Positions 7,702 to 23,654 of a stretch of 64,000 nucleotides of DNA are shown piece after piece. The DNA lies in assembly GCA_031379885.1 (NCBI GenBank), contig JANNFN010000181.1, forward strand, positions 1,605-65,604, given 5' to 3'. Each line of letters starts with the position of its first letter. The first letter of the stretch is position 1. Source of the stretch: Methylotenera sp. Lineage in GTDB: Bacteria; Pseudomonadota; Gammaproteobacteria; Burkholderiales; Methylophilaceae. A program made the position numbers and the translations under genes. The notes beneath the pieces are model-generated. The model ran no database searches and had not been told where the DNA came from. It saw only the letters and a list, made by a program, of their open reading frames with translations.

Positions 7702-10700
7702 ATGGATTTATCAGTCGTTTACAGTAAAACTGCTAAAGGGTTGCGCGCGCGCGCTTCTCTCCTCGGCGGCTTGCCCTCACATTTGATGAAGGTGCTTACG
7801 CACGTTGATGGCATATCAAAAGCCGAATCAATTCTCATTAAATTTGACGAAATTACCGAACACAAATTGATTGTAGCTTTGAATCTGCTTGAAAGGGAAG
7901 GCTACATCAAGCCAGTCATGGTGACTGTGCCTAGTGAAAATGATTGGGCACCAGCCACAATTTTCGCTCCCATGGAAGTTGAGGAGTTTGAAAATGTAGA
8001 AGAAGTTGAAGTCAAAGCCAAAGAAAACGCACAGCTACAAGCTGAGCGTAAAGCGCAGGCAGAAGAAGAAGCACGTCAGCAGGCCGAAATTAAGGCAAGA
8101 GAGAAAGAAGAACAGGCACTCGAAAAAGCGAAAATTAAAGAAAAGCTAAGAGCCGAAGCGAAAGTGAAGGCGCAGTTAGAGGCTGATCGCATCACTCGCG
8201 AAAAAGAAGAGGCGCGAAAAAAAGCGGAGGCAGTAGCTCATGCTAAAGCCGAAGAAGAGGCGCGAATCCAAGCAGAACAAAAAGCTAAAGCTGCAGAAGA
8301 AGCGCGACTGAAGGCTGAGGCAGAAGCAAAGGCTAAAGCAGAAGAAAAAGAGCATGTGCGCCGTGAAATAGAGCGTATCTCACGCGAAGCAGAAGCAGAG
8401 CATAAAAAAGCTGAAGACGAAGCGCATGCCAAGGCAGCTCTTAAAGCGCGTGAGGAACTAGAACAGGCGCATGCCAAAGCGATGGAAGAAGCACGATTAC
8501 AGGCAGAACGCGAAGCTAAAGAGATTGAGGAAGCGCGTTTGCAGGCCGAACTTAAGGCGCGAGACGAAGCAGAAAAGGCACATGCCAAGGCAGAAGCGGA
8601 AGCAAAAGAGAATGCGCGTCGTGAATTAGAACGCATTGGTCGAGAAGCTGAAGAAGCGCAAAGAAAAGCAGAGGCCGAAGCTATCGCTAAGGCAGAAGCA
8701 GAAGCGAAACTAGAAGCCGAACGCAAAGCTAAGGCAGAAGAGAAGGCGCGACTGAAGGCGGAAGCTGAAGAAAAAGCTGAAGCAGCAGAACAAGCAAAAA
8801 TAGAAGAGAAGGAAAAGGCAAGACTTGAAATAGCACGTATTGTTCGTGAAGCAGAGGAAGCACGCAAAAAATCTGAAGCTAAGGCTAAAGAAACTCGTTT
8901 GGAAACTAAGCGCAAAGCGAAAGCAGAGCAAGAGGCGCGCCTGAAGGTAGAGCGCAAGCCAAAAGCTGAGGTAAAGCAAGCAATTACAAAGACAGCGCTA
9001 GAGGAAGAAGCTAGCGTAGATGCAAATTTAAATGCTCGCCTTGAAATGGAGCGCTTTGCTCTTGAGGCTGAAGAGGGGCGAAAAAAATCTAAAGCTGAAG
9101 TCCGCGCCAAAGCCGAAGAGGCAGAAAGTAAAGCACAGGCAGAAGCAGCGCTGATTCGTGCTAAAGCTGAAGAACAGGCTAAAGCAGATGCGAAAGAGAC
9201 TTCGCGCTTAGAAATGGAACGTATCAGCCGTGAAGCAGATGAAGTGCGGAAAAAACAAAAAACTGAAGCCCACACTAACATTGAAGTAGCACTAATCAGT
9301 GAAACCAAAGGGCGATCATGGGAAGAAATTGAAGAAGAGGAAGAAAGAGCCTTTAAAGAAGAAGAAAGAGCTTTCGAAGAGGAAGGGCATGCCACAAAGG
9401 AAGATGATGTAGAGCGTGTGATTGAGAAAATAACCCGGCAAGAAGCAGAAAGGCTGGAGCGTGAGGAAATTAAACTCCAAGCGAAGGAAGAGGCCGAGAC
9501 TCTTGCCAAAGTTCAAGCCAAAATATTACTAAGAAGCATCAACTACAGGAAGTGGCTTTCAAGAGCTGGCAAGGCTATTAAGCCAATATTGGTTTATCTG
9601 CCGCTAGTGATTATATTGCTAATTGGGGTGCTGCATCTGATTAACCTAAGTATGTTGGTTGCACCTATCGAAAAGCTTGCCTCCGAGAGTGTAGGTGAGC
9701 AAGTAACCATCGAAAAAGTTTATGCATCGCTATGGCCTCAACCGCATCTTGAGTTAGGGAATGTGAGGATAGGTGTCAACTCTAGCTTAAAAATTGAGAC
9801 AGTAAATATTTCCCCAGTTACTTCAACGCTATTCCAAGAAGTCAAAATGTTGAACTCGCTTGAGCTCGAAGGAATGAAATTCACTCAGGACAATTTTGGG
9901 CAGCCTTTGCAATGGATAAATAGTTTAGGTAAGGCTGAGCATTTGAAGGTTGATCAGATAAATTTGAAAAAAGCTGTTATCCAGATTCGTGATCTCGAGT
10001 TTGGCACTTTTAGCGGTAAAGTCGAACTTACTGAAGCACGAGAACTTAAAAATATCGATTTGATTAGTGCAGAGCAAACACTTTCAGTTCAGGTAACGCC
10101 ACAAGGTAGCAATTTTGATGTTATGTTGACTGGTACAGATTGGCACTTGCCGGTAAATCCAAAATTTGTGTTTAATGAACTTAAAGCTAAGGGAACATTA
10201 AGTCAAAACCAGATTATTTTCAGCCAAATCGAGGGCAGTATTTATGGAGGAACAATCAAGGGCAAGGCGGCCGTCGATTGGTCAAGTGAATGGTCGACTG
10301 CAGGCAATTTTGAGCTATTTAATGCCACATTGCCGCAAATGCTCAACGCCTTTGGCAGCAGCGCTTCTATTGATGGTAAGCTTGCACTGACTGGGATTTT
10401 TTCTTGCAGATCACCACAAGCTATTAATTTGGTAGATTCTCCAGAAATTACAGCAAATTTCGAGCTGCATGATGGCAAAATAAATGATATTGATTTGGCG
10501 CGAGCCGTGCTATTTAAAGGTAGTCAGTCACTGGTTGGTGGCGCAACGCATTTTGACAAATTTACTGGCGGCTTACAGCTTAAGAGTGGATATTATCAGT
10601 ATAAGCAGCTAGTGCTGGAAACTAATCAATTTCACGCTAAGGGAAATTTGGATATTCTTCCGAATCAGGAGGTTTCTGGAAAGATTAGTGCCAATCTAAC

Positions 10701-10770
10701 AGCACAATCACGTCGCTTATATGCTAACTTTAATTTAGCTGGCAAGGCTGGGGACATTAAGCGGCAGTAA
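7702..10770 (+). CDS. large membrane protein: small N-terminal domain, Ala/Glu/Lys-rich coiled coil, TM helix, AsmA-like C-terminal region
   Basis: Long TolA-like EAKAKAE repeats; one hydrophobic segment (ILVYLPLVIILLIGVLHLI); C-terminus with G.I.GIDL...T.F..L.G pattern typical of AsmA-like proteins. Confidence 0.75.
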   Translation: MDLSVVYSKTAKGLRARASLLGGLPSHLMKVLTHVDGISKAESILIKFDEITEHKLIVALNLLEREGYIKPVMVTVPSENDWAPATIFAPMEVEEFENVEEVEVKAKENAQLQAERKAQAEEEARQQAEIKAREKEEQALEKAKIKEKLRAEAKVKAQLEADRITREKEEARKKAEAVAHAKAEEEARIQAEQKAKAAEEARLKAEAEAKAKAEEKEHVRREIERISREAEAEHKKAEDEAHAKAALKAREELEQAHAKAMEEARLQAEREAKEIEEARLQAELKARDEAEKAHAKAEAEAKENARRELERIGREAEEAQRKAEAEAIAKAEAEAKLEAERKAKAEEKARLKAEAEEKAEAAEQAKIEEKEKARLEIARIVREAEEARKKSEAKAKETRLETKRKAKAEQEARLKVERKPKAEVKQAITKTALEEEASVDANLNARLEMERFALEAEEGRKKSKAEVRAKAEEAESKAQAEAALIRAKAEEQAKADAKETSRLEMERISREADEVRKKQKTEAHTNIEVALISETKGRSWEEIEEEEERAFKEEERAFEEEGHATKEDDVERVIEKITRQEAERLEREEIKLQAKEEAETLAKVQAKILLRSINYRKWLSRAGKAIKPILVYLPLVIILLIGVLHLINLSMLVAPIEKLASESVGEQVTIEKVYASLWPQPHLELGNVRIGVNSSLKIETVNISPVTSTLFQEVKMLNSLELEGMKFTQDNFGQPLQWINSLGKAEHLKVDQINLKKAVIQIRDLEFGTFSGKVELTEARELKNIDLISAEQTLSVQVTPQGSNFDVMLTGTDWHLPVNPKFVFNELKAKGTLSQNQIIFSQIEGSIYGGTIKGKAAVDWSSEWSTAGNFELFNATLPQMLNAFGSSASIDGKLALTGIFSCRSPQAINLVDSPEITANFELHDGKINDIDLARAVLFKGSQSLVGGATHFDKFTGGLQLKSGYYQYKQLVLETNQFHAKGNLDILPNQEVSGKISANLTAQSRRLYANFNLAGKAGDIKRQ

Positions 10771-12273: not shown

Positions 12274-13746
12274 TTAATCTTTAATGGCGGGTGGGCCTTT
12301 AAAGCGTTTGCTCTCACCAAACACAAACCAGAATATCGCCATTACTGCTAGCATTGCGATTGTGACATACAATACTTTTTCATTGGGTGGTTGCACACCA
12401 ACTACCACCAAGAAGCCACCACCAATCACAGCTAATACGCCAATGAGTTTTGACATACCACCTAAATCAAATGGGCCTTTGTGATTCCAAGTTTTGCCTT
12501 CTGCCAATATGCCAGCAGCAATTGGCATGATGTAAGAAATATACAAAAATACCGCACAACCCACAGCCAATACGCTAAAGGCGCCTGCGTACAAGGTGGA
12601 AGCAATTGCTAAAACGGCTGAAACCCAAACTGCAGCAACTGGTGTTTTTAAGGTTGTATGCACAGTTTTTAACATGTTAGAAGCTGGCAAACCACCATCA
12701 CGTGCAAACGCATACATCATGCGCGAAGTAGAAGTTAAGCAAGCCAAGCCACATAGATAATTAACTAAGAAAATAGACAAACCTAATATGGTTTGCAGTG
12801 CGGGCGGTAATGTTTTCAACAGCTCAGCAAAAAAGCCAAAGCCATTTTTAACACCTGTAGGAATATCTGGCAATACCAAAACAAAAGTACATATTAAGAT
12901 ATAACCAAAAATAACAGAGTAAACCACAGAACTGACAATGCCTTTAGGTACTGTTTTTGCTGCATCGCGAGTTTCTTCAGAGGTGTGTGCAGAAGCATCA
13001 AAACCTGTAATGGTATAAACCGCAAGCAAAAGGCCAAGCAAGAACGGGAACACCATACCTTCAGAAGCTGGCCATGGACTACCTTCTGTACCCGTGTAGT
13101 TAGTAAAGGTAAACAAGCGTGAAAACTCTAAAGGGCCTTGATGGTAAGCCAGCAAAGATAAAACTAGCACAATCGTAATGGCGAAAATAAGATAGCCAGA
13201 GACGTCAGTGATTTTGGTGGTAAATTTAGGAAAGCGATAAATTAATATGGCCTGCGAAATAGTAAACAGCGCAATGTAGAAAATTTGGTGCGAATAGCCA
13301 AACCCAGATACATCAACCCCTAACAGCGGCAGGGCTAAGCCTTTAAAAAAGAAGTCATATACGCCAAAATTAACCGAGGCCACCACAAAGATGAGACCCA
13401 GCAAATTAAACCAAGCAGTGCACCAACCATAGCCTTTGCCGCCCAGTATAGAGCCCCAGTGATACAAGCCGCCTGCTGTTGGGTAACTGGATGAAATTTG
13501 CGCCATAGCGAGTGCAACAATGGCTGCAAACAGGCCGCCCACTAACCAGCCGATACCAATAGAAGCGCCTCCTGCCCCACCCAATGCCAATGGGAACGCA
13601 CTAATGCCACCAGCTAAAATACAAATAATAGAAAAAGAAATGGCAAAGTTAGAAAACCCACCCATGTGCCGGTGAAGCTCCTGGTCATACCCCATTTTTT
13701 TCAGTTCTGCGGCATCATGATCCAACGCCTGATTCGTCTCGCTCAT
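12274..13746 (-). CDS. APC-superfamily amino acid/amine permease (paralog 2)
   Basis: MGY.QEL.R.MGGFSNFAISFSIICIL and GFDASAHTSEET motifs; ~12 TM. Confidence 0.9.
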   Translation of the reverse strand: MSETNQALDHDAAELKKMGYDQELHRHMGGFSNFAISFSIICILAGGISAFPLALGGAGGASIGIGWLVGGLFAAIVALAMAQISSSYPTAGGLYHWGSILGGKGYGWCTAWFNLLGLIFVVASVNFGVYDFFFKGLALPLLGVDVSGFGYSHQIFYIALFTISQAILIYRFPKFTTKITDVSGYLIFAITIVLVLSLLAYHQGPLEFSRLFTFTNYTGTEGSPWPASEGMVFPFLLGLLLAVYTITGFDASAHTSEETRDAAKTVPKGIVSSVVYSVIFGYILICTFVLVLPDIPTGVKNGFGFFAELLKTLPPALQTILGLSIFLVNYLCGLACLTSTSRMMYAFARDGGLPASNMLKTVHTTLKTPVAAVWVSAVLAIASTLYAGAFSVLAVGCAVFLYISYIMPIAAGILAEGKTWNHKGPFDLGGMSKLIGVLAVIGGGFLVVVGVQPPNEKVLYVTIAMLAVMAIFWFVFGESKRFKGPPAIKD

Positions 13747-13996: not shown

Positions 13997-14031
13997 AAAA
14001 AAAGCCCAACTTACGCAAACGTATGCTGGGC
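13997..14031 (-). terminator. intrinsic terminator ending the riboswitch-led operon
   Basis: GCCCAGC...GTTGGGC stem followed by a 7-nt U-tract on the minus strand, after the MBL gene. Confidence 0.75.
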
Positions 14032-14093: not shown

Positions 14094-15101
14094 CTAATTC
14101 TTAACAACTGGTAACGGTTTTTTCTTCCAGTAATCTTGCACCAATTTTAGGTTTTGCGTGTGTACATCGCGATAAGGCTCGAACACATGAATCGTGCCTT
14201 TGGCCACAAAGTCACCAATATAATCTTCCATTTTGGCATTTAAAAAATCTTTATCATGCGAATGCTTTAACATTTGTGTAATGTATGAAATGGTCGCATC
14301 GATAAACGTTTTGTCGTAACCGCCATTCATTACTACGCTTGGGTCGCCATGATTGGGGTAAATTTTAGCCACATCCCAAATGCGCATTTTTTTAAGATTA
14401 TTGATGTGCGTTGGTAAACCTTCCACTTCTACCATGTAGGTCAGCGTATCTTCTAAAGTATCTCCTGAGAGCAAAATTTTATCTTTAGGAAAGTAAATGA
14501 CGCACTGATCTTTACTATGAATGTTTATTTGCCGTAATTCAAATGGTATATCGCCTACCTTCATGGCCTTTTTACCAATAAAAGTCACATTGGGGATTCT
14601 GGTTGGTTTTATTGGCGGTAAACCCCACAATTTGCCAGATTCAATATCGTTTTTTTGCTTAAATAGCGCATCACGCGTGGCTTTAGTGGTAATCACGTCG
14701 CTATCGTCATACACCGCATCGCCCGCTATATGGTCTAAGTGCCAATGGCTATGCACCACACTAAATTTCTTAACGCCCATTTTCTCCATATAATTGCGCA
14801 CCCACTTGGCTTGTGCCACGCTGGTAAAGGTATCGTAAACCACTGCTTGGTCGCCTTGGTGAATCACATAAGTGCCCACGCCCAGCTTCATCGCCGCATC
14901 GTCGTACCAGTTCCAATCTTTGGCGTAGCGCTCGGCTGGGCGCCTGCCATCAAAAAAGTAAATCAGGTAATCGTTAAGCGCTTTTACTTGAATGGGTGGC
15001 TCGGCGACAGCGGTGGCAGCTTGCAAATTACCACTAACCAAAAACCCAAACAGCAAAACAGAAGCTGATAATAGGGACAAAAAACGCGTTAAAATATACA
15101 T
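14094..15101 (-). CDS. exported metallo-beta-lactamase-fold hydrolase
   Basis: Signal peptide; HWHLDH (HxHxDH), downstream IHS, SGDT and PNHG metal-ligand motifs. Confidence 0.85.
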   Translation of the reverse strand: MYILTRFLSLLSASVLLFGFLVSGNLQAATAVAEPPIQVKALNDYLIYFFDGRRPAERYAKDWNWYDDAAMKLGVGTYVIHQGDQAVVYDTFTSVAQAKWVRNYMEKMGVKKFSVVHSHWHLDHIAGDAVYDDSDVITTKATRDALFKQKNDIESGKLWGLPPIKPTRIPNVTFIGKKAMKVGDIPFELRQINIHSKDQCVIYFPKDKILLSGDTLEDTLTYMVEVEGLPTHINNLKKMRIWDVAKIYPNHGDPSVVMNGGYDKTFIDATISYITQMLKHSHDKDFLNAKMEDYIGDFVAKGTIHVFEPYRDVHTQNLKLVQDYWKKKPLPVVKN

Positions 15102-15157
15102 GACATTGACCTTTCTTAATGTTTGTTTGTAAAATTAGAAGCATCTACTAAAAGGCG

Positions 15158-16639
15158 CTATTCTTTAACTGCTGGCGGCCCTTTAAAACGTTTGTTCTCA
15201 CCCAATACAAACCAAAATATCGCCATTACAAGCAACATTGCAATCATCAAATAAAACACTTTTTCGTTGGGTGGTTTCATGCCAATAAATTGTACAAATG
15301 CACCACCAATCACCGCCAGCACAGCCAGTATCTTGGAAAATCCGCCTAAACTAAATGGACCTTTATGCTTCCATGTTTTGCCCTCTGCTAATAAGCCTGC
15401 CGCAATTGGCATGGTGTAAGAAAGATGTAAAAACACCGCACTACCTGCAGCCAACACAAAAAACGCATCGCCATATAAAGTAGCTGCAACAGCAAGCGCG
15501 CCTGAAACCCACACAGCAGCAACAGGTGTTTTAAGCGTGGGGTGAATTTTGCGCAAAAAACCTGAAGCTGGCAAACCGCCGTCGCGCGCAAAGGCAAACA
15601 TCATGCGTGAACAAGAGGTTAGGCAAGCCAAGCCGCATAAAAAGTTAAGAATAAATATCGTAATACCTAATATCGTTCTTAAGCCTGTTGGCAGTGAACT
15701 CATCAGCGCATCAAAAAAGCCCAAGCCTTGTTTAACGCCTTCTGCCAAGTTTGGCATGACCAATACAAACGTACACACCATGATATAGCCAAAAATCGCC
15801 GAATAAACTACTGCGTTAATGATTCCTTTTGGCACGGTTTTGGCAGCATCGTGCGTTTCTTCAGCGGTATGGGCAGAGCCATCAAAACCAGTAATGGTGT
15901 AAATGCTCAGCAATAAACCCGTTATAAATGGCAAGAACATGCCCTCCATTCTTGGCCAAATACTACCTTCTGCACCAGTGAAGTTTGTAAAAGTAAACAG
16001 GCGCGAAAAGTCTAATTTAATTGGGCTGTAAACCAATAAAGATGCTGTAAGTACCACTGCAGTAATGAAAATAAAGTAGCCCGATAAATCGGTAATCTTA
16101 GTGGTGAATTTAGGAAAGCGATAAATCATAGTGGCTTGAATAGCCGTTATTGCGGCTAAAAACGTGGTTTGAAAGGCATAATTCATGCTATCAGGGTTAA
16201 TGCCTAACAACGGCGCAATCAGCGTTTTAAACATCGGGTCATACACCCCAAAATTAACCGATGCCACCACAAAAATAATGCCCAGCAAATTAAACCAAGC
16301 GGTACACCAACCATAACCTTTGCCACCTAAAATGCTGCCCCAATGATACAAGCCACCGGCAGTGGGGTAGCTGGATGCTATTTGCGCCATGCAAAGTGAA
16401 ACAATGACCGTAAAAGATGCACCAACCAACCAGCCAATGCCAATTGATGCGCCACCGCCCGCACCCAATGCTTGAGGGAAAGCAGTAATACAACCTGCCA
16501 AAATACATATGATGGAGAAGGAAATAGCAAAATTAGAAAACCCGCCCATGTGTCGGTTTAACTCTTGCTCGTAACCCATTTTTTTCAATTCTGCGGCATC
16601 GCTATCTAATGCCGAGCTTGCACTTCTTGCATCATTCAT
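15158..16639 (-). CDS. APC-superfamily amino acid/amine permease (paralog 1)
   Basis: Same family motifs as the 12274 gene; long identical peptide blocks shared between the two. Confidence 0.9.
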   Translation of the reverse strand: MNDARSASSALDSDAAELKKMGYEQELNRHMGGFSNFAISFSIICILAGCITAFPQALGAGGGASIGIGWLVGASFTVIVSLCMAQIASSYPTAGGLYHWGSILGGKGYGWCTAWFNLLGIIFVVASVNFGVYDPMFKTLIAPLLGINPDSMNYAFQTTFLAAITAIQATMIYRFPKFTTKITDLSGYFIFITAVVLTASLLVYSPIKLDFSRLFTFTNFTGAEGSIWPRMEGMFLPFITGLLLSIYTITGFDGSAHTAEETHDAAKTVPKGIINAVVYSAIFGYIMVCTFVLVMPNLAEGVKQGLGFFDALMSSLPTGLRTILGITIFILNFLCGLACLTSCSRMMFAFARDGGLPASGFLRKIHPTLKTPVAAVWVSGALAVAATLYGDAFFVLAAGSAVFLHLSYTMPIAAGLLAEGKTWKHKGPFSLGGFSKILAVLAVIGGAFVQFIGMKPPNEKVFYLMIAMLLVMAIFWFVLGENKRFKGPPAVKE

Positions 16640-16694
16640 ATTGCTCCCCCTATTTTTTACTACTGTTAATTAGAATGTTACTTTTTTGGCAAAT

Positions 16695-17438
16695 CTATTT
16701 TGGTAATTCGACGATTTGGTTTTCTCTAAATGGCAAAGTGGAATGCTTAATCTGCCAATGATTGGTATCTACTATTTCACCAAAGGATATTTCCATGTCC
16801 AACCAGCTCAGCAACAGTTCACGTGTTGGTTTTTGAGTTTCTATGGCCTGCATTAATGAAGGCGCTTTAGGCAATGTGACTCGCCGTGGTCTGGCATAGG
16901 CCACGTGGTTGCCAGTCATCATTAAATAGGCAGGCACTTTCAGGCCTTTACTATTCATACCAGAGGTCATCTCAAAAATGAAAGGTTCTTGGCTATTATT
17001 GAGTCGCCGCCAGACCTCAAGATAAGTGTCTTCAGTACCCGTTTCAATCACCGTATCAGCATCGGTAAATACCATTTTGCCAATATCGCGCGCATCTGTG
17101 GGTGCTTGAAAATCGATTTCGCGCACCCATTGGCATACTTCTGATGATTGTGTTGTGCTTGGCGTTACAATGGTTAAACCAGCAAACCCTTGTTGAGTGG
17201 CTAATAGCAATAATTCATCTTGAGTATAATCGGCAAGCATGCTCGCAGATCCAATACCAGTGCGGCTTGCAGGCAAGCGAATATCAATGTGGTAATATGC
17301 TGTTTGCATCCATAACACTAAAGATGTGTCGTCTTTAATGCTGTCAGTTTCTAACAAATGGCGTTGCCAAACACCCATATAATTGGTGGGTACGGCATTG
17401 CTAGACGGTATTTTGGTTGGGTTTGTTGCAGATTGCAT
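16695..17438 (-). CDS. hypothetical cytoplasmic beta-rich protein (loosely resembles the fungal Hri1 family)
   Basis: GVWQR...LWMQT...IDIR...GFAG...CQW.REIDFQ...DIG...IETG...YLEVWRRL pattern; the Hri1 resemblance is from memory only. Confidence 0.6.
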   Translation of the reverse strand: MQSATNPTKIPSSNAVPTNYMGVWQRHLLETDSIKDDTSLVLWMQTAYYHIDIRLPASRTGIGSASMLADYTQDELLLLATQQGFAGLTIVTPSTTQSSEVCQWVREIDFQAPTDARDIGKMVFTDADTVIETGTEDTYLEVWRRLNNSQEPFIFEMTSGMNSKGLKVPAYLMMTGNHVAYARPRRVTLPKAPSLMQAIETQKPTRELLLSWLDMEISFGEIVDTNHWQIKHSTLPFRENQIVELPK

Positions 17439-17489
17439 GTTGACTCCATTTCAGCATAAAAGTTAGTTTAGCAGCATTTTAAAAACGCG

Positions 17490-17602
17490 CCTCCCGGGCT
17501 TTTATCCCTCCGTGTAGCCAAAACTGTGTGCATATTGCGTATTTGGCCGAGAACTCTTGGACCAGACGCTTTAATAAAATTAAAGCCGGAACCCTAGTTA
17601 TC
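17490..17602 (-). ncRNA. ykkC-yxkD: guanidine-I riboswitch (ykkC-yxkD leader)
   Basis: Minus strand GATAACTAGGGTTCCGGCTTTAATTTTATTAAAGCGTCTGGTCCAAGAGTTCTCGGCCAAA...TTTTGGCTACACGGAGGGATAAAAGCCCGGGAG carries the conserved UAGGGUUCCG, CUGGUCC.AGAG and UACACGG.GGGAUAAAAGCCCGGGAG blocks, with pairing stems (GCTTTAAT/ATTAAAGC; GCCAAA/TTTGGC). Confidence 0.92.
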
Positions 17603-17631
17603 TTTTTTGATACAATTGTGTTACAAATTGA

Positions 17632-17660
17632 ACTATAATCTTATTAAAAAATATTTACAA
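17632..17660 (-). promoter_or_regulatory. sigma70 promoter for the riboswitch transcript
   Basis: TTGTAA-N17-TATAGT on the minus strand, ~30 nt 5' of the aptamer. Confidence 0.5.
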
Positions 17661-17780
17661 CTACTTTTGTTTAAGTAATATTATTGTTTGTGGCGTTCAT
17701 TCCTTTTGGTTTTAAAAACAAGCTTGCCATACGCTTTCATTCAGTCGCATAATTAAGCTAAGTTTTTTCAAGGCTTAATA

Positions 17781-19196
17781 ATGAGTGCATATAGTTATAG
17801 TGTTGGTGTGCAGACTTTTCAGTTTGCTGATTTAAAGGGCGTGCTCGCCAAGGCAACGCCTGCGCGCTCTGGCGACTACTTATCAGGTGTTGCAGCTGAC
17901 ACTTATGCAGAACGCATGGCTGCTAGAATGTGTTTGGCGGAGATTCCGCTCAAGCGCTTTCTCGAAGAACTCATCATTCCCTATGAAACCGATGAAGTCA
18001 CGCGACTGATTGTTGATACGCATGATAAGGTAGCGTTTGCGGAGATAAGCCATTTAACTGTGGGTGATTTTCGTGATTGGTTGCTTTCAGATATTGCTGA
18101 TTCGGCTACTTTAAAGCGCGTTTCTACAGGCATTACGCCTGAAATGGCCGCGGCGGTGAGCAAGCTCATGCGTAACCAAGATTTGATTTTGGTCGCTAAA
18201 AAATGCCACGTCATTACATCGTTTCGCAATACTATCGGCCTGCCAGGCCATATTTCAGTGCGCTTACAACCTAATCATCCGACTGATGACATGCGCGGCA
18301 TAGCGGCCTCGATGCTCGATGGTTTACTGTATGGCGCGGGTGATGCGGTGATTGGCATTAACCCTGCAACTGATAGTTTGCCAGCGTTGATGGATTTGTA
18401 TTATTTGGTGGATGAAGTGATCAATCAATACGAAATCCCCACGCAGTCGTGCATTCTCACGCACGTTACCAACCAAATTCAGTTGATTGAAAAAGGTGCA
18501 CCAGTAGACTTAGTATTTCAATCGATTGCAGGCACCGAAAAAGCCAATAAAAGTTTCGGCATTGATATTGCTTTACTTAGAGAGGCGCAATCAGCCGCGC
18601 TTTCATTAAACCGGGGAACAGTTAAGAATGAATCAGGTGAGCATAACGTGATGTATTTCGAGACTGGTCAAGGTTCTGCACTTTCCGCGAATGCCAACTT
18701 TGGGGTGGATCAACAAACCTGCGAAGCGCGTGCTTACGCGGTTGCGCGGCATTTATCGCCGCTATTAACAAATACAGTCGTTGGTTTTATTGGGCCTGAA
18801 TATTTGTATGATGGTAAACAGATTATACGTGCTGGGCTAGAAGACCACTTTTGCGGCAAACTATTAGGCGTTCCGCTAGGTTGTGATGTTTGTTACACCA
18901 ACCACGCCGAAGCTGACCAAGATGACATGGACACCTTGATGACGCTACTCGCTACGGCAGGGCTGACATTTATTATGGGAATCCCTGGTGCGGATGACAT
19001 TATGCTTAATTACCAAACCACTTCGTTTCACGATGCGTTATATTTGCGCAAGGTGCTTGGCCTGAAGGCTGCGCCAGAGTTTGAAGTGTGGCTTAAAAAA
19101 ATGCATATTATGGATGCTAATGGACAAGTACAACCAATCACTAATGTGCATCACATGTTGCAGAATATGCCGAAACATTTATTAAGCGCTGCATAA
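17781..19196 (+). CDS. eutB: ethanolamine ammonia-lyase large subunit
   Basis: RSGDYLSGVAA, RLQPNHPTDD, YFETGQGSALS and GCDVCYTNH motifs. Confidence 0.95.
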   Translation: MSAYSYSVGVQTFQFADLKGVLAKATPARSGDYLSGVAADTYAERMAARMCLAEIPLKRFLEELIIPYETDEVTRLIVDTHDKVAFAEISHLTVGDFRDWLLSDIADSATLKRVSTGITPEMAAAVSKLMRNQDLILVAKKCHVITSFRNTIGLPGHISVRLQPNHPTDDMRGIAASMLDGLLYGAGDAVIGINPATDSLPALMDLYYLVDEVINQYEIPTQSCILTHVTNQIQLIEKGAPVDLVFQSIAGTEKANKSFGIDIALLREAQSAALSLNRGTVKNESGEHNVMYFETGQGSALSANANFGVDQQTCEARAYAVARHLSPLLTNTVVGFIGPEYLYDGKQIIRAGLEDHFCGKLLGVPLGCDVCYTNHAEADQDDMDTLMTLLATAGLTFIMGIPGADDIMLNYQTTSFHDALYLRKVLGLKAAPEFEVWLKKMHIMDANGQVQPITNVHHMLQNMPKHLLSAA

Positions 19197-19199
19197 ATT

Positions 19200-19985
19200 A
19201 TGGCTGATAAACCAAACGACATTACTAAAATTGACCCATGGCAACAGCTAAAAAGCTTCACGCGCGCGCGCATCGCCATTGGCCGCGTTGGCAGCAGTTT
19301 GCCAACTAAAGAAGTGCTGGATTTTGGTTTAAGCCACGCTATGGCACGCGATGCGGTGCACTTGGCGCTAGATATAGAGGCATTGGAAGTGGACATCAAA
19401 AACCATGATTTTTCTACCATGCGCGCCAAAAGCATGGCGCCAGACCGTGCCAGCTATCTATTGCGTCCCGATTGGGGACGTCGGCTACATGAACAAAGTC
19501 TGTCGAATTTACAAAATCTACATCAAGCTAAACCTATTGATTTTTTAATTGTAGTTGGCGATGGCTTATCGTCACTTGCTGTTGCTCGACATGTAGCGCC
19601 ACTGCTGGCAGAGATGCGTAACCACTTACCTAGTGATTGGCACACAGGCCACGTGGTTATTGCCTCGCACGCGCGCCTGGCGATAGGGGATGAAATAGGA
19701 CAAGCCTTGAATGCACGTATGGTTGCCATGCTTATCGGCGAGCGTCCTGGTTTGAGTTCGCCCGATAGTTTGGGCATTTATCTTACTTATAATCCTAAAG
19801 CGGGTTTAAGTGATGCAGATCGTAATTGCATCTCCAACGTGCGCCCAGAAGGTTTGAAGTACGCGGCTGCAGCAAAAAAATTAGTTTGGTTGGCGAAAGA
19901 AGCTATGCGCTTAAAAGTAACAGGTGTTGCGCTAAAAGATGAAAGTGATGTACAGGAAATTGGCGCGCAAACCAAGCTAACTTAG
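19200..19985 (+). CDS. eutC: ethanolamine ammonia-lyase small subunit
   Basis: TRARIAIGRVG, YLLRPDWGRRL, LIGERPGLSSPDSLG and RNCISN motifs. Confidence 0.95.
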   Translation: MADKPNDITKIDPWQQLKSFTRARIAIGRVGSSLPTKEVLDFGLSHAMARDAVHLALDIEALEVDIKNHDFSTMRAKSMAPDRASYLLRPDWGRRLHEQSLSNLQNLHQAKPIDFLIVVGDGLSSLAVARHVAPLLAEMRNHLPSDWHTGHVVIASHARLAIGDEIGQALNARMVAMLIGERPGLSSPDSLGIYLTYNPKAGLSDADRNCISNVRPEGLKYAAAAKKLVWLAKEAMRLKVTGVALKDESDVQEIGAQTKLT

Positions 19986-21938: not shown

Positions 21939-23015
21939 ATGAGCATTCAAGTTAAAAGCGTTAAAGCATCAGCAATCGAAAACGATCCGCGTTGGGCACA
22001 GGTACGAGCGCGCGATAAGTCGCAAGCTAGCATATTTTATTATTCCGTGAACACCACGGGCGTGTATTGCAAGCCATCTTGTGCTGCACGTCTTGCACGA
22101 CCAGAGCATGTGGCATTTTATAGCAGTTGTGAAGAGGCTGAACGTGCAGGATTTCGCCCTTGTAAACGCTGTAAGCCAGGACAGCCAGATTTGGCAGAAA
22201 CACACTCAAAAATGGTGATAGAAATTTGTCATTTAATTGAAAATTCGGATCAAATAATTAACTTGGAAACTTTGGCGAATAAGGCAGGACTAAGTGTCTA
22301 TCATTTTCATCGTGTGTTCAAAGCTATTACTGGGCTTACGCCTAAAGCTTATTCAGTTGCGCATCAAGCAAAAAAAGTACGTAACGAATTGAGTAAAAAT
22401 ACAACAGTGACAGAGGCTATTTTTGAGGCTGGGTATAATTCTAATAGTCGTTTTTATGAGAAATCAACGCAGTTGTTGGGCATGACACCTTCGAGTTACA
22501 AGGCTGGTGGCGCTAATGCCCTTATACGCTTTGCAATTGGTGAATGCTCGCTAGGTGCAATTTTAGTGGCAAACAGTGAGCGTGGCGTTTGCGCAATATT
22601 TTTAGGCGAAAATCCTGAAAAATTAGTGCAAGATTTACAAGATATGTTTCCACGCGCGCAGCTAATAGGTGCTGATCGTGATTATGAAGCGCTCATTGCC
22701 AAGGTTATAGGTTTTATCGAAGCGCCTTCTTTAGGTTTAGATTTACCTTTGGATGTGCGTGGAACGGCCTTTCAACAACGCATATGGAAAGCGTTGCAAA
22801 AAATTCCAGCAGGCACTACTGTAAGCTATACCGATATTGCGCAGCTTATTGGTTCGCCCAAATCATCTCGTGCTGTTGCGAGTGCTTGTGCGGCGAATAA
22901 AATTGCTGTTGCAATTCCGTGTCATCGAGTGGTACGTAATGATGGCGCTCTTTCAGGTTATCGCTGGGGCGTAGATCGAAAACGGATGCTATTGGAAATG
23001 GAAGCTAAAACCTAA
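21939..23015 (+). CDS. ada: bifunctional Ada regulator / O6-methylguanine methyltransferase
   Basis: Zn site YCKPSC...RPCKRC, AraC HTH, active-site PCHRV. Confidence 0.95.
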   Translation: MSIQVKSVKASAIENDPRWAQVRARDKSQASIFYYSVNTTGVYCKPSCAARLARPEHVAFYSSCEEAERAGFRPCKRCKPGQPDLAETHSKMVIEICHLIENSDQIINLETLANKAGLSVYHFHRVFKAITGLTPKAYSVAHQAKKVRNELSKNTTVTEAIFEAGYNSNSRFYEKSTQLLGMTPSSYKAGGANALIRFAIGECSLGAILVANSERGVCAIFLGENPEKLVQDLQDMFPRAQLIGADRDYEALIAKVIGFIEAPSLGLDLPLDVRGTAFQQRIWKALQKIPAGTTVSYTDIAQLIGSPKSSRAVASACAANKIAVAIPCHRVVRNDGALSGYRWGVDRKRMLLEMEAKT

Positions 23016-23654
23016 ATGGATTTGTTTGAGAATATTCAACCTAACAAGTTAGAAATTGATAAAGATGCTTACTTTCTGTCAGGTTATGCACTAATCAATG
23101 AAAAAGCACTCATGATTGGTTTGCAGGAGATTTTAAATCAAGCGCCGCCGCGCCATATGATGACAAAAATGGGTTTTTACACTTCAGCCGAGATGACTAA
23201 TTGTGGTCAGCTGGGTTGGATTTCAGACAGCAAAGGCTATCGTTATGATGCATTAGATCCACAAACGGGAAAGCTTTGGCCTACAATGCCAATCAGTTTT
23301 TTAAAGCTAGCACAGAATGCGGCGATTGAAGCTGGTTTTGGTGATTTTAAGCCCGATGCTTGCTTAGTTAATCAATACAAAGTGGGTGCGAGTATGGGTT
23401 TGCACCAAGATAAAAACGAGCTAGATTTTACCCAGCCCATAGTCAGTGTTTCGCTCGGCATTCCCGCCACTTTTCAGTTTGGCGGCTTAAGTCGTAGCGA
23501 TAAACCGATCAAAATCCAGTTAACGCATGGCGATATTGTGGTTTGGGGCAAAGAAGCGCGCTTAAAATATCACGGAATCATGCCTCTGAAGCCCAATATC
23601 CATGCGGTGCTCGGACCATATCGTTATAACCTGACTTTTAGAAAAGCGGGTTAG
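23016..23654 (+). CDS. alkB: alkylated-DNA repair dioxygenase AlkB
   Basis: HQD (HxD), YHG and RYNLTFR motifs; MTNCG.LGW.SD..GYRY. Confidence 0.95.
   Translation: MDLFENIQPNKLEIDKDAYFLSGYALINEKALMIGLQEILNQAPPRHMMTKMGFYTSAEMTNCGQLGWISDSKGYRYDALDPQTGKLWPTMPISFLKLAQNAAIEAGFGDFKPDACLVNQYKVGASMGLHQDKNELDFTQPIVSVSLGIPATFQFGGLSRSDKPIKIQLTHGDIVVWGKEARLKYHGIMPLKPNIHAVLGPYRYNLTFRKAG

What the first reader, a model, noticed from the sequence alone, without database searches (positions are those of the whole stretch)
14094..17602. Guanidine-I riboswitch leading an operon with no known guanidine enzyme: unknown protein + APC permease + exported MBL hydrolase
Seen: a clear ykkC-yxkD aptamer at 17490-17602, ~50 nt upstream of a three-gene minus-strand unit (gaps of 55 and 56 nt) that ends at a terminator at 13997-14031. 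The CUGGUCC.AGAG and GGGAUAAAAGCCCGGGAG blocks fit the guanidine subtype better than the ppGpp/PRPP variants. Established: guanidine-I switches are ON switches, typically controlling Gdx/SugE exporters, guanidine carboxylase with CgdAB and allophanate hydrolase, arginase-family guanidine hydrolase, or importers. None of those enzymes or exporters is here. Inference: a new route for uptake and breakdown of guanidine or a guanidino compound as a nitrogen source, with the MBL-fold protein and the unknown protein as candidate novel enzymes.
Basis: partly seen in the sequence, partly recalled or inferred. Interest (0 to 1): 0.88.

Follow-up and report, generated by a model that had tools for sequence, protein, structure and literature searches.

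The report
Guanidine riboswitch controlling an MgdL-type lyase
A genuine guanidine-sensing RNA switch in a methylotroph controls a relative of the recently described hydroxymethylguanidine lyase MgdL plus a transporter, yet the genome has none of the enzymes that normally act before or after that lyase.

Summary
A Guanidine-I aptamer (RF00442, 89.3 bits, cut-off 63) lies at 17489-17608 (-), 50 nt before a three-gene unit that ends in a good terminator.

The "unknown protein" (16695-17438) is a homologue of MgdL, the N-(hydroxymethyl)guanidine lyase of Vreelandella boliviensis (Sinn et al. 2025). hhalign gives 99.9% probability. Catalytic Asp/Arg and the guanidine-binding Asp/Glu are conserved, and the model is a beta-barrel.

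MgdL releases guanidine; it does not degrade it. APC permeases behind Guanidine-I switches are already known. The exported MBL hydrolase has no guanidine link in other taxa and arrived recently together with the permease.

What is unusual:
- The assembly (94% complete) has no MgdH hydroxylase, no desaturase-like substitute, no guanidine carboxylase pathway, no guanidinase and no urease.
- It is the only one of 15 MgdL-positive Methylophilaceae genomes without CgdAB.
- The block is an insertion between eutBC and its permease, and the riboswitch-controlled permease is a paralogue of that permease.

Most likely this is a guanidine-induced uptake-and-cleavage module for hydroxymethylguanidine-type compounds or formaldehyde-guanidine adducts. 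It is a new variant of a known kind.

The parts
17632..17660 (-). Promoter-like site, TTGTAA-17 nt-TATAGT
   Evidence: Consensus scan, 9 of 12 matches. The TATAGT box is conserved in L001 and L015. Function is inferred.
17489..17608 (-). Guanidine-I riboswitch aptamer (ykkC subtype 1)
   Evidence: RF00442, 89.3 bits against a cut-off of 63. No competing ykkC-variant family at E<=10. It is the only copy in the genome. Orthologous aptamers sit at the same place in L001/L016 and L015.
17439..17488 (-). Expression platform. It holds an invariant GGCGCGUUUUU..AAAUGCUGC hairpin and the Shine-Dalgarno GGAG at 17444-17447, which can pair with the 3' half of the aptamer (UUGGCUACACGG).
   Evidence: Alternative folds. 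The free fold and the aptamer-enforced fold are nearly isoenergetic (-38.5 vs -37.2 kcal/mol), and the SD is more accessible when the aptamer is enforced. The SD-flanking bases differ between the window (GGAGUCAA) and L001/L015 (GGAGCUAA), yet both still pair with UUGGCU. The mechanism is inferred; the statistics are weak for the window itself (z = -0.55).
16695..17438 (-). MgdL-family protein (putative N-(hydroxymethyl)guanidine lyase), 247 aa, cytoplasmic, matching Pfam HRI1 just below threshold
   Evidence: BLASTP against V. boliviensis MgdL: 25% identity over 236 aa, E 5e-18. hhalign of the family profile against MgdL: probability 99.9%, E 3.5e-34. D52/R54 align with the catalytic D49/R51, and D118/E132 align with the guanidine-binding D112/E126. 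The AF2 model has pLDDT 89.5 and pTM 0.86 and is a beta-barrel. dN/dS is 0.09-0.25.
15158..16639 (-). APC-superfamily permease 'perm1', 493 aa; probable transporter of guanidine or a guanidine derivative; paralogue of the eut-linked permease
   Evidence: PF13520, E 7e-44. TIGR00907 243 bits and TIGR03428 (urea/guanidine-carboxylase permease) 140 bits, both far below their cut-offs. 72% identical to perm2. The nearest solved structures are cationic amino acid transporters.
14094..15101 (-). Exported MBL-fold metallohydrolase, 335 aa, with a Sec signal peptide and an HWHLDH metal motif; role unknown
   Evidence: PF00753, E 1e-10. Signal peptide MYILTRFLSLLSASVLLFGFLVSGNLQA|AT read directly from the sequence. 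Homologues elsewhere sit in unrelated contexts. Absent from L016 and L019. Unrelated to the MBL of the carboxylase operons.
13997..14031 (-). Intrinsic terminator that ends the riboswitch-controlled unit
   Evidence: -16.6 kcal/mol, z = -3.8, followed by a run of seven U.
12274..13746 (-). APC permease 'perm2', 490 aa, outside the riboswitch unit; the ancestral permease of the eut locus
   Evidence: In same-genus genomes without MgdL, its orthologue lies directly divergent from eutB (L127, L130, L131, L132; L136 has the same layout with a more distant, perm1/perm2-like permease).
17781..19985 (+). eutB and eutC (ethanolamine ammonia-lyase), transcribed divergently; these are context genes, not part of the unit
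   Evidence: PF06751, E 5e-219, and PF05985, E 3e-91.

Best explanation
A guanidine-specific ON riboswitch controls a three-gene transcript in a Methylotenera-like methylotroph.

Gene 1 is a member of the MgdL family. It most likely splits N-(hydroxymethyl)guanidine, or a close hemiaminal, into guanidine and formaldehyde by Asp/Arg acid-base catalysis.

Gene 2 is an APC cation permease. It was duplicated from the ethanolamine-locus permease and most likely carries guanidine or hydroxymethyl-/methyl-guanidine across the inner membrane.

Gene 3 is a periplasmic di-metal MBL hydrolase of unknown substrate. It arrived recently together with the permease and may be a passenger.

The block was inserted between eutBC and its permease. 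The genome has no methylguanidine hydroxylase and no guanidine-assimilating pathway. The module is therefore best read as a stand-alone system that takes up and cleaves hydroxymethylguanidine or resolves formaldehyde-guanidine adducts. The useful product for this methylotroph would be formaldehyde, and the released guanidine would keep the switch on. It is not a new guanidine-degradation route.

Shown: the aptamer, the homology and conserved active site of gene 1, the gene families, the absence of partner pathways from the assembly, and the insertion history. Inferred: ligand response, direction of transport, the actual substrate and the physiological role.
For: Aptamer.

MgdL homology and residues: and PMC12508155. 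Fold.

The family's guanidine link is independent of this locus:
- It is the last gene of CgdA-CgdB-carboxylase-allophanate hydrolase operons in about 15 Methylophilaceae loci.
- It is the first gene after a Guanidine-I aptamer in L042, L106, L107, L116, L118, L122 and in G001, G003, G042, G054, G092.
- 20 of 29 metagenome loci with at least 8 kb of flank carry a Guanidine-I aptamer or carboxylase genes.

Absence of partners in the own genome: CgdAB, carboxylase, arginase family (58), urease, MgdH, the desaturase-like protein and MBL258. 14 of 15 MgdL-positive family genomes have CgdAB, and only this one does not. A second MAG with the identical four-gene layout (L015/G121) also lacks CgdAB.

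Purifying selection acts on all three genes. Insertion into the eut/permease locus and paralogy of perm1.
Against: - Identity to the characterised MgdL is only 25%, so the substrate may differ.
- No hydroxylase is present, so the source of the substrate is unexplained.
- The assembly is a 194-contig MAG at 94% completeness, so a 15-kb catabolic operon could be missing.
- Three of five related MAGs with this locus type (L016, L017, L019) and a fourth with the full layout (L018) do carry a carboxylase operon elsewhere.
- The direction of transport is unknown.
- The switching fold is statistically weak for the window's own sequence.
- Two relatives (L019, L129) have MgdL-perm2 with no aptamer.
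Confidence: 0.6

Rival explanations
1. This is an ordinary accessory of the known pathway. The organism does have a guanidine carboxylase operon, with a desaturase-like or MgdH hydroxylase, in the unassembled 6% of the genome. The window's unit is only an extra uptake-plus-lyase module that feeds it.
For: 14 of 15 MgdL-positive Methylophilaceae genomes have CgdAB. The MAGs behind L016, L017, L018 and L019 have both locus types. The assembly has 194 contigs and is 93.9% complete.
Against: No trace of any of about eight pathway genes by tblastn or HMM. An independent MAG with the same complete layout (G121) also lacks CgdAB. Six of seven sampled genomes of the same genus, most of them 99-100% complete, lack CgdAB too.
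Confidence: 0.2
2. One reading: a new route for uptake and breakdown of guanidine or a guanidino compound as a nitrogen source, with the unknown protein and the MBL hydrolase as novel guanidine-degrading enzymes.
For: There is a guanidine-specific switch, a permease, and no known degrading enzyme in the genome. The MBL has an intact metal motif and is under purifying selection.
Against: Gene 1 is an MgdL homologue with that enzyme's active site, and its known reaction releases guanidine. MBL335 homologues elsewhere sit in neighbourhoods without guanidine-linked genes. MBL335 is periplasmic whereas the permease would deliver substrate to the cytoplasm. It is absent from L016 and L019.
Confidence: 0.07
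3. Detoxification. The APC permease exports guanidine, and MgdL only frees guanidine trapped as the stable formaldehyde hemiaminal so that it can be expelled.
For: The genome has no way to use guanidine. Most guanidine riboswitches control exporters (PMC12186494). The hemiaminal has a half-life above 1 h (PMC12508155). The host is a formaldehyde-producing methylotroph; this is inferred from the Methylotenera and Methylophilaceae relatives.
Against: Riboswitch-linked APC permeases described so far are thought to be importers (PMC11410670). perm1 derives from a permease paired with ethanolamine ammonia-lyase, that is, an uptake system. An SMR-family gene exists elsewhere in the genome.
Confidence: 0.13

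Closest known systems
MgdH/MgdL methylguanidine demethylation module of Vreelandella boliviensis (Sinn et al., Nat Commun 2025, PMC12508155)
   Same: Gene 1 is homologous to MgdL and keeps D49/R51 and D112/E126 (as D52/R54 and D118/E132). The predicted fold is a beta-barrel. A guanidine-specific Guanidine-I riboswitch heads the unit.
   Different: There is no MgdH 2-OG dioxygenase, ABC importer, CgdAB, carboxylase or allophanate hydrolase in the operon or in the assembly. Identity is only 25%. The partners are an APC permease and an exported MBL hydrolase instead. The host is a methylotroph, not a halophile.
Guanidine-I riboswitch - APC permease - guanidinase operon of comammox Nitrospira (Palatinszky et al., Nature 2024, PMC11410670)
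   Same: A Guanidine-I aptamer controls an APC-superfamily permease in a short operon with an enzyme.
   Different: In Nitrospira the permease comes first and the enzyme is an arginase-family guanidinase. This genome has no arginase-family gene at all. The permease here belongs to a different APC subfamily and derives from an ethanolamine-locus permease.
Guanidine carboxylase operons of Methylophilaceae with a desaturase-like protein, MBL and MgdL at the end (L002, L022, L027 and others)
   Same: Same bacterial family, and the MgdL paralogues are 60-66% identical.
   Different: Those operons carry CgdAB, carboxylase, allophanate hydrolase, a membrane di-iron desaturase-like protein and a lactonase-like MBL that is unrelated to the window's MBL.

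Membership tests
Guanidine-I riboswitch (RF00442, ykkC subtype 1) | Covariance-model score above the curated gathering threshold over the full aptamer | tested here: met
   89.3 bits against 63, model positions 1-107
Guanidine-I riboswitch (RF00442, ykkC subtype 1) | Not a subtype-2 variant (ppGpp, PRPP, ADP/CDP) | tested here: met
   No other riboswitch family matches 17400-17700 at E<=10
Guanidine-I riboswitch (RF00442, ykkC subtype 1) | Binds guanidine and switches expression on | not testable with these tools
   Only in-silico alternative folds are available. SD masking by the 3' half of the aptamer is plausible but weak for the window.
MgdL, N-(hydroxymethyl)guanidine lyase | Sequence homology to the characterised V. 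boliviensis enzyme | tested here: met
   BLASTP E 5e-18 over 236 aa; hhalign probability 99.9%, E 3.5e-34. P0370 appears in both hit lists.
MgdL, N-(hydroxymethyl)guanidine lyase | Catalytic Asp49 and Arg51, whose mutation abolishes activity | tested here: met
   D52 and R54 in the motif HIDIRLP are invariant across 38 diverse homologues
MgdL, N-(hydroxymethyl)guanidine lyase | Guanidine-binding Asp112 and Glu126 in the barrel | tested here: met
   They align with D118 (at least 90% conserved) and E132 (invariant)
MgdL, N-(hydroxymethyl)guanidine lyase | Beta-barrel core with a second sheet and short helices | tested here: met
   AF2 model with pLDDT 89.5, about 15 strands and 4 helices. Foldseek gives only weak lipocalin-like matches and none at E<0.001.
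MgdL, N-(hydroxymethyl)guanidine lyase | Works with a methylguanidine hydroxylase (MgdH) encoded alongside | tested here: not met
   No MgdH homologue in the genome at E<=0.01 and no desaturase-like homologue
MgdL, N-(hydroxymethyl)guanidine lyase | Lyase activity on N-(hydroxymethyl)guanidine | not testable with these tools
   Needs an enzyme assay
Guanidine carboxylase pathway (CgdAB, carboxylase, allophanate hydrolase) | The genes are present in the operon or genome | tested here: not met
   PF09347: none. TIGR02712: only biotin-carboxylase domains. tblastn with the L002 proteins: none.
GdmH-type guanidinase (arginase family) | Arginase-family gene present | tested here: not met
   PF00491: no match in the genome. 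Urease is also absent.
Riboswitch-controlled APC guanidine permease | APC fold, encoded directly in a Guanidine-I unit | tested here: met
   PF13520, E 7e-44. It is the second gene of the unit.
Riboswitch-controlled APC guanidine permease | Orthology to the permease of urea/guanidine carboxylase systems (TIGR03428) | tested here: not met
   140 bits against a cut-off of 740. The closest paralogue is the eut-locus permease. None of 29 other MgdL loci has an APC permease.
Guanidine-linked MBL hydrolase | Homologues are recurrently associated with guanidine riboswitches or genes | tested here: not met
   Contexts of P0159, P0175 and P0151 are unrelated. It is unrelated to the MBL258 of the carboxylase operons.

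The most novel reading that the evidence does not exclude
A stand-alone MgdL in a methylotroph that can neither make its substrate enzymatically nor use guanidine. One reading is that it repairs the spontaneous, long-lived formaldehyde-guanidine hemiaminal. The other is that it harvests formaldehyde as a C1 substrate from hydroxymethylguanidine imported by a repurposed ethanolamine-type permease. Guanidine would then act only as the inducing by-product. Either reading would be a new physiological role for the lyase, and the first would be a new kind of metabolite-damage control tied to a riboswitch.
Probability: 0.2. Interest if true: 0.7.

Novelty: new variant of a known kind. Interest (0 to 1): 0.5.

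Why it matters
MgdL was described only in 2025, in halophiles, and always beside its 2-OG dioxygenase and the guanidine carboxylase pathway. Neither NCBIfam nor Pfam has a model that names it: the family profile-matches only the fungal HRI1 family, so genes like this one are still annotated as hypothetical.

This work shows three things:
- The family is widespread. It has 660 clusters at 50% identity.
- It is tightly tied to Guanidine-I riboswitches in many lineages.
- It is usually partnered with a membrane desaturase-like protein rather than with MgdH.

The window offers the minimal case: switch, lyase and permease, with no hydroxylase and no guanidine sink. That makes it a clean system in which to ask what the natural substrate of these lyases is, and whether formaldehyde-guanidine chemistry matters in methylotrophs.

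It also corrects the tempting reading that the operon encodes a new guanidine-degrading pathway.

Tried and rejected
- A PDB sequence search with the family profile gave only a chance-level hit to a GTPase.
- Foldseek against the PDB gave no match at E<0.001, only weak lipocalin and FABP barrels, so the fold alone did not name the protein.
- Literature searches linking HRI1, MBL or desaturase to guanidine riboswitches found nothing.
- The idea that the window's MBL is the same as the MBL of the carboxylase operons was rejected; they share only the HxHxDH motif.
- A metagenome scan with the 38-sequence alignment failed because it had no conserved stretch. It was repeated with 11 sequences.
- A classical terminator overlapping the aptamer was not found. 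The expression platform remains unresolved between SD masking and a weak, GU-rich hairpin followed by a U-tract.
- The AlkB-type 2-OG oxygenase at 23016-23654 was considered as a possible hydroxylase. It was rejected because it sits in an ada-alkB DNA-repair operon and is not similar to MgdH.
Full report
**Observation.** The window contains exactly one Rfam family above its gathering score. It is a full-length Guanidine-I aptamer at 17489-17608 on the minus strand (89.3 bits, cut-off 63). A permissive rescan of 17400-17700 brings up no ppGpp, PRPP or other ykkC-variant family even at E<=10, so the guanidine subtype stands. It is the only Guanidine-I aptamer in the 2.35-Mb, 194-contig, 93.9%-complete assembly, and there is no Guanidine-II aptamer.

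Downstream lie three ORFs: 16695-17438, 15158-16639 and 14094-15101. The unit ends in a hairpin followed by a run of seven U at 13997-14031 (-16.6 kcal/mol, z = -3.8). A TTGTAA-17-TATAGT promoter-like site sits at 17660-17632.

**The three proteins.** Pfam and NCBIfam give three results:
- Gene 1 has a just-sub-threshold HRI1 match (26 bits against 27).
- Gene 2 is an APC permease. It scores 243 bits on TIGR00907 and 140 bits on the urea-carboxylase permease model, both far below their cut-offs.
- Gene 3 is an MBL-fold hydrolase.

Gene 3 has a Sec signal peptide and an HWHLDH metal motif. Flanking genes are a second APC permease (12274-13746, after the terminator) and, divergently, eutBC.

**Gene 1 is the informative one.** Its close relatives are all "hypothetical" proteins from Methylotenera and Methylophilaceae. 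They occur in two contexts.
- Context A is the window's own: eutBC, then divergently the riboswitch, gene 1, perm1, MBL335 and perm2. It is complete in L015 and L018. L016 keeps the aptamer but has a frameshifted perm1 and no MBL. L017 has a decayed aptamer. L019 and L129 have neither aptamer, perm1 nor MBL.
- In context B, found in about 15 loci, gene 1 is the last gene of CgdA-CgdB-(Guanidine-II)-guanidine carboxylase-allophanate hydrolase-desaturase-like protein-MBL258-gene 1.

A full HMMER scan finds 660 clusters at 50% identity. More distant members (36-46% identity) again lie in Guanidine-I units (L042, L043). Among 80 metagenome loci, 18 carry a Guanidine-I aptamer. Of the 29 loci with at least 8 kb of flank, 20 carry the aptamer or carboxylase genes, and none carries an APC permease or the window's MBL. 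In a sample of 121 Methylophilaceae genomes, the aptamer sits directly upstream of the gene in G001, G003, G014, G042, G054 and G092.

**Identity of gene 1.** Sinn et al. 2025 (PMC12508155) showed two steps in Vreelandella boliviensis. A 2-OG dioxygenase, MgdH, hydroxylates methylguanidine. [quoted passage not shown] D49 and R51 are essential, and D112 and E126 bind the guanidine moiety inside a beta-barrel.

I took the MgdL sequence from their Supplementary Data 1 and confirmed it in the genome locus L125. The comparison gives:
- The window protein aligns over 236 residues (25% identity, E 5e-18).
- The family profile matches MgdL with 99.9% probability (E 3.5e-34).
- D49/R51 correspond to D52/R54 in the invariant HIDIRLP motif. 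D112/E126 correspond to D118/E132.
- The AlphaFold model (pLDDT 89.5, pTM 0.86) is a beta-barrel with a second sheet and short helices, as described for MgdL.
- dN/dS of 0.09-0.25 shows the gene is maintained.

Gene 1 is therefore a member of the MgdL family. Its activity is inferred, not shown.

**What is missing.** The assembly lacks all of the following:
- an MgdH homologue;
- the desaturase-like protein and MBL258;
- CgdAB;
- guanidine carboxylase and allophanate hydrolase;
- any arginase-family gene;
- urease.

It has one SMR-family gene, with no riboswitch. Across the 121 Methylophilaceae genomes, 15 have MgdL and 34 have CgdAB. Fourteen of the 15 MgdL-positive genomes also have CgdAB, and the exception is this genome. 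That could be a gap in the MAG. However, the independent MAG behind L015, which has the identical four-gene layout, also lacks CgdAB, and six of seven sampled genomes of the same genus lack it too.

**History of the locus.** In same-genus genomes without MgdL, the perm2 orthologue lies directly divergent from eutB (L127, L130, L131, L132; L136 shows the same layout with a more distant permease). perm2 is therefore the ancestral, probably ethanolamine-related, permease of the eut locus. The riboswitch-MgdL-perm1-MBL335 block is an insertion. perm1 is a 72% paralogue of perm2.

Synonymous divergence of perm1 and MBL335 between the window, L015 and L018 is 0.4-0.6. For the flanking MgdL and eutB it is 1.3-2.3. 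The perm1-MBL335 pair therefore spread recently among these lineages. Homologues of MBL335 in Hyphomicrobium and other taxa sit in unrelated neighbourhoods. PDB searches give only remote beta-lactamase similarity.

**How it probably works.** Guanidine binding to the aptamer should turn expression on. The free fold pairs the Shine-Dalgarno region (GGAG, 17444-17447) with the 3' half of the aptamer (UUGGCUACACGG). Enforcing the aptamer frees the SD at almost no energy cost: -38.5 vs -37.2 kcal/mol in the window and -45.8 vs -45.2 in L001. The SD-flanking bases differ between the window and its relatives yet keep the pairing. The statistics are good for L001 (z = -3.4) but not for the window (z = -0.55). 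A conserved GU-rich hairpin with a U-tract could also act as a terminator. The platform therefore remains inferred.

Once the switch is on, the cell makes a cytoplasmic MgdL-type lyase and an APC cation permease. There is no hydroxylase and no guanidine sink. The most economical reading is therefore uptake and cleavage of N-(hydroxymethyl)guanidine-type hemiaminals, or resolution of formaldehyde-guanidine adducts formed in a formaldehyde-rich methylotroph. Formaldehyde would be the useful product, and guanidine would sustain induction.

The rivals, set out in the Rival explanations section of this report, are:
- a missing carboxylase operon;
- guanidine export;

**Verdict.** The RNA and the operon are real. 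The "unknown protein" is now a known kind, and the permease class is known. The MBL is probably incidental. The unusual point is a stand-alone, riboswitch-controlled MgdL without its partners, inserted in an ethanolamine locus of a methylotroph. This is a new variant of a known kind, of moderate interest.

Noticed in passing
L043 2126-9699; L045 954-10786; also L046, L056, L075, L099 and others: A widespread operon headed by a Guanidine-I aptamer: NMT1-type binding protein, fatty-acid-desaturase-like membrane protein, (SDR, SDR), EamA transporter, creatininase-like protein, BiuH-like isochorismatase, lactonase-like MBL, MgdL. It is often next to GS-III, NikR, CgdAB and the carboxylase. MgdH-type dioxygenases occur in only 2 of the 80 metagenome loci (L107, L076). 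The desaturase-like protein may therefore be a non-homologous hydroxylase partner of MgdL.
   Followed up: partly
L107 1815 and 6046; L122 6504 and 9650; G001, G003, G014, G042, G054: Two Guanidine-I aptamers lie a few kb apart in the same cluster. One precedes desaturase-like protein-MBL-EamA. The second lies directly before MgdL-ABC importer-CgdAB-carboxylase.
   Followed up: no
L032 2708-2752, L034 2729-2773, L029 8201-8245: A Guanidine-II (mini-ykkC) aptamer lies between cgdB and the carboxylase gene inside Methylophilaceae operons. This is the same internal position as described for V. boliviensis.
   Followed up: no
L017 372-490: A decaying copy of the riboswitch, with AGAG changed to AAAU and CCCGGGAG changed to CCCAAGAU. 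It falls below the Rfam threshold and scores 59 bits with the home-made model. The MAG carries three carboxylase operons.
   Followed up: partly
window 14094-16639 compared with L015 and L018: perm1 and MBL335 have dS of 0.4-0.6 between genomes, whereas the flanking MgdL and eutB have dS of 1.3-2.3. This indicates recent recombination or transfer of the two-gene cassette.
   Followed up: partly
L016 10781-12261; G014 C2:160573-161237: Broken copies: perm1 is split by a frameshift in L016, and MgdL is split into three pieces behind an intact aptamer in G014.
   Followed up: no
window 7702-10770 (+): A 1022-aa ORF with no Pfam match at E<=1e-5.
   Followed up: no
window 21939-23654 (+): An ada-alkB alkylation-repair operon (Ada methyltransferase/regulator followed by an AlkB 2-OG dioxygenase). 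It is unrelated to MgdH.
   Followed up: partly
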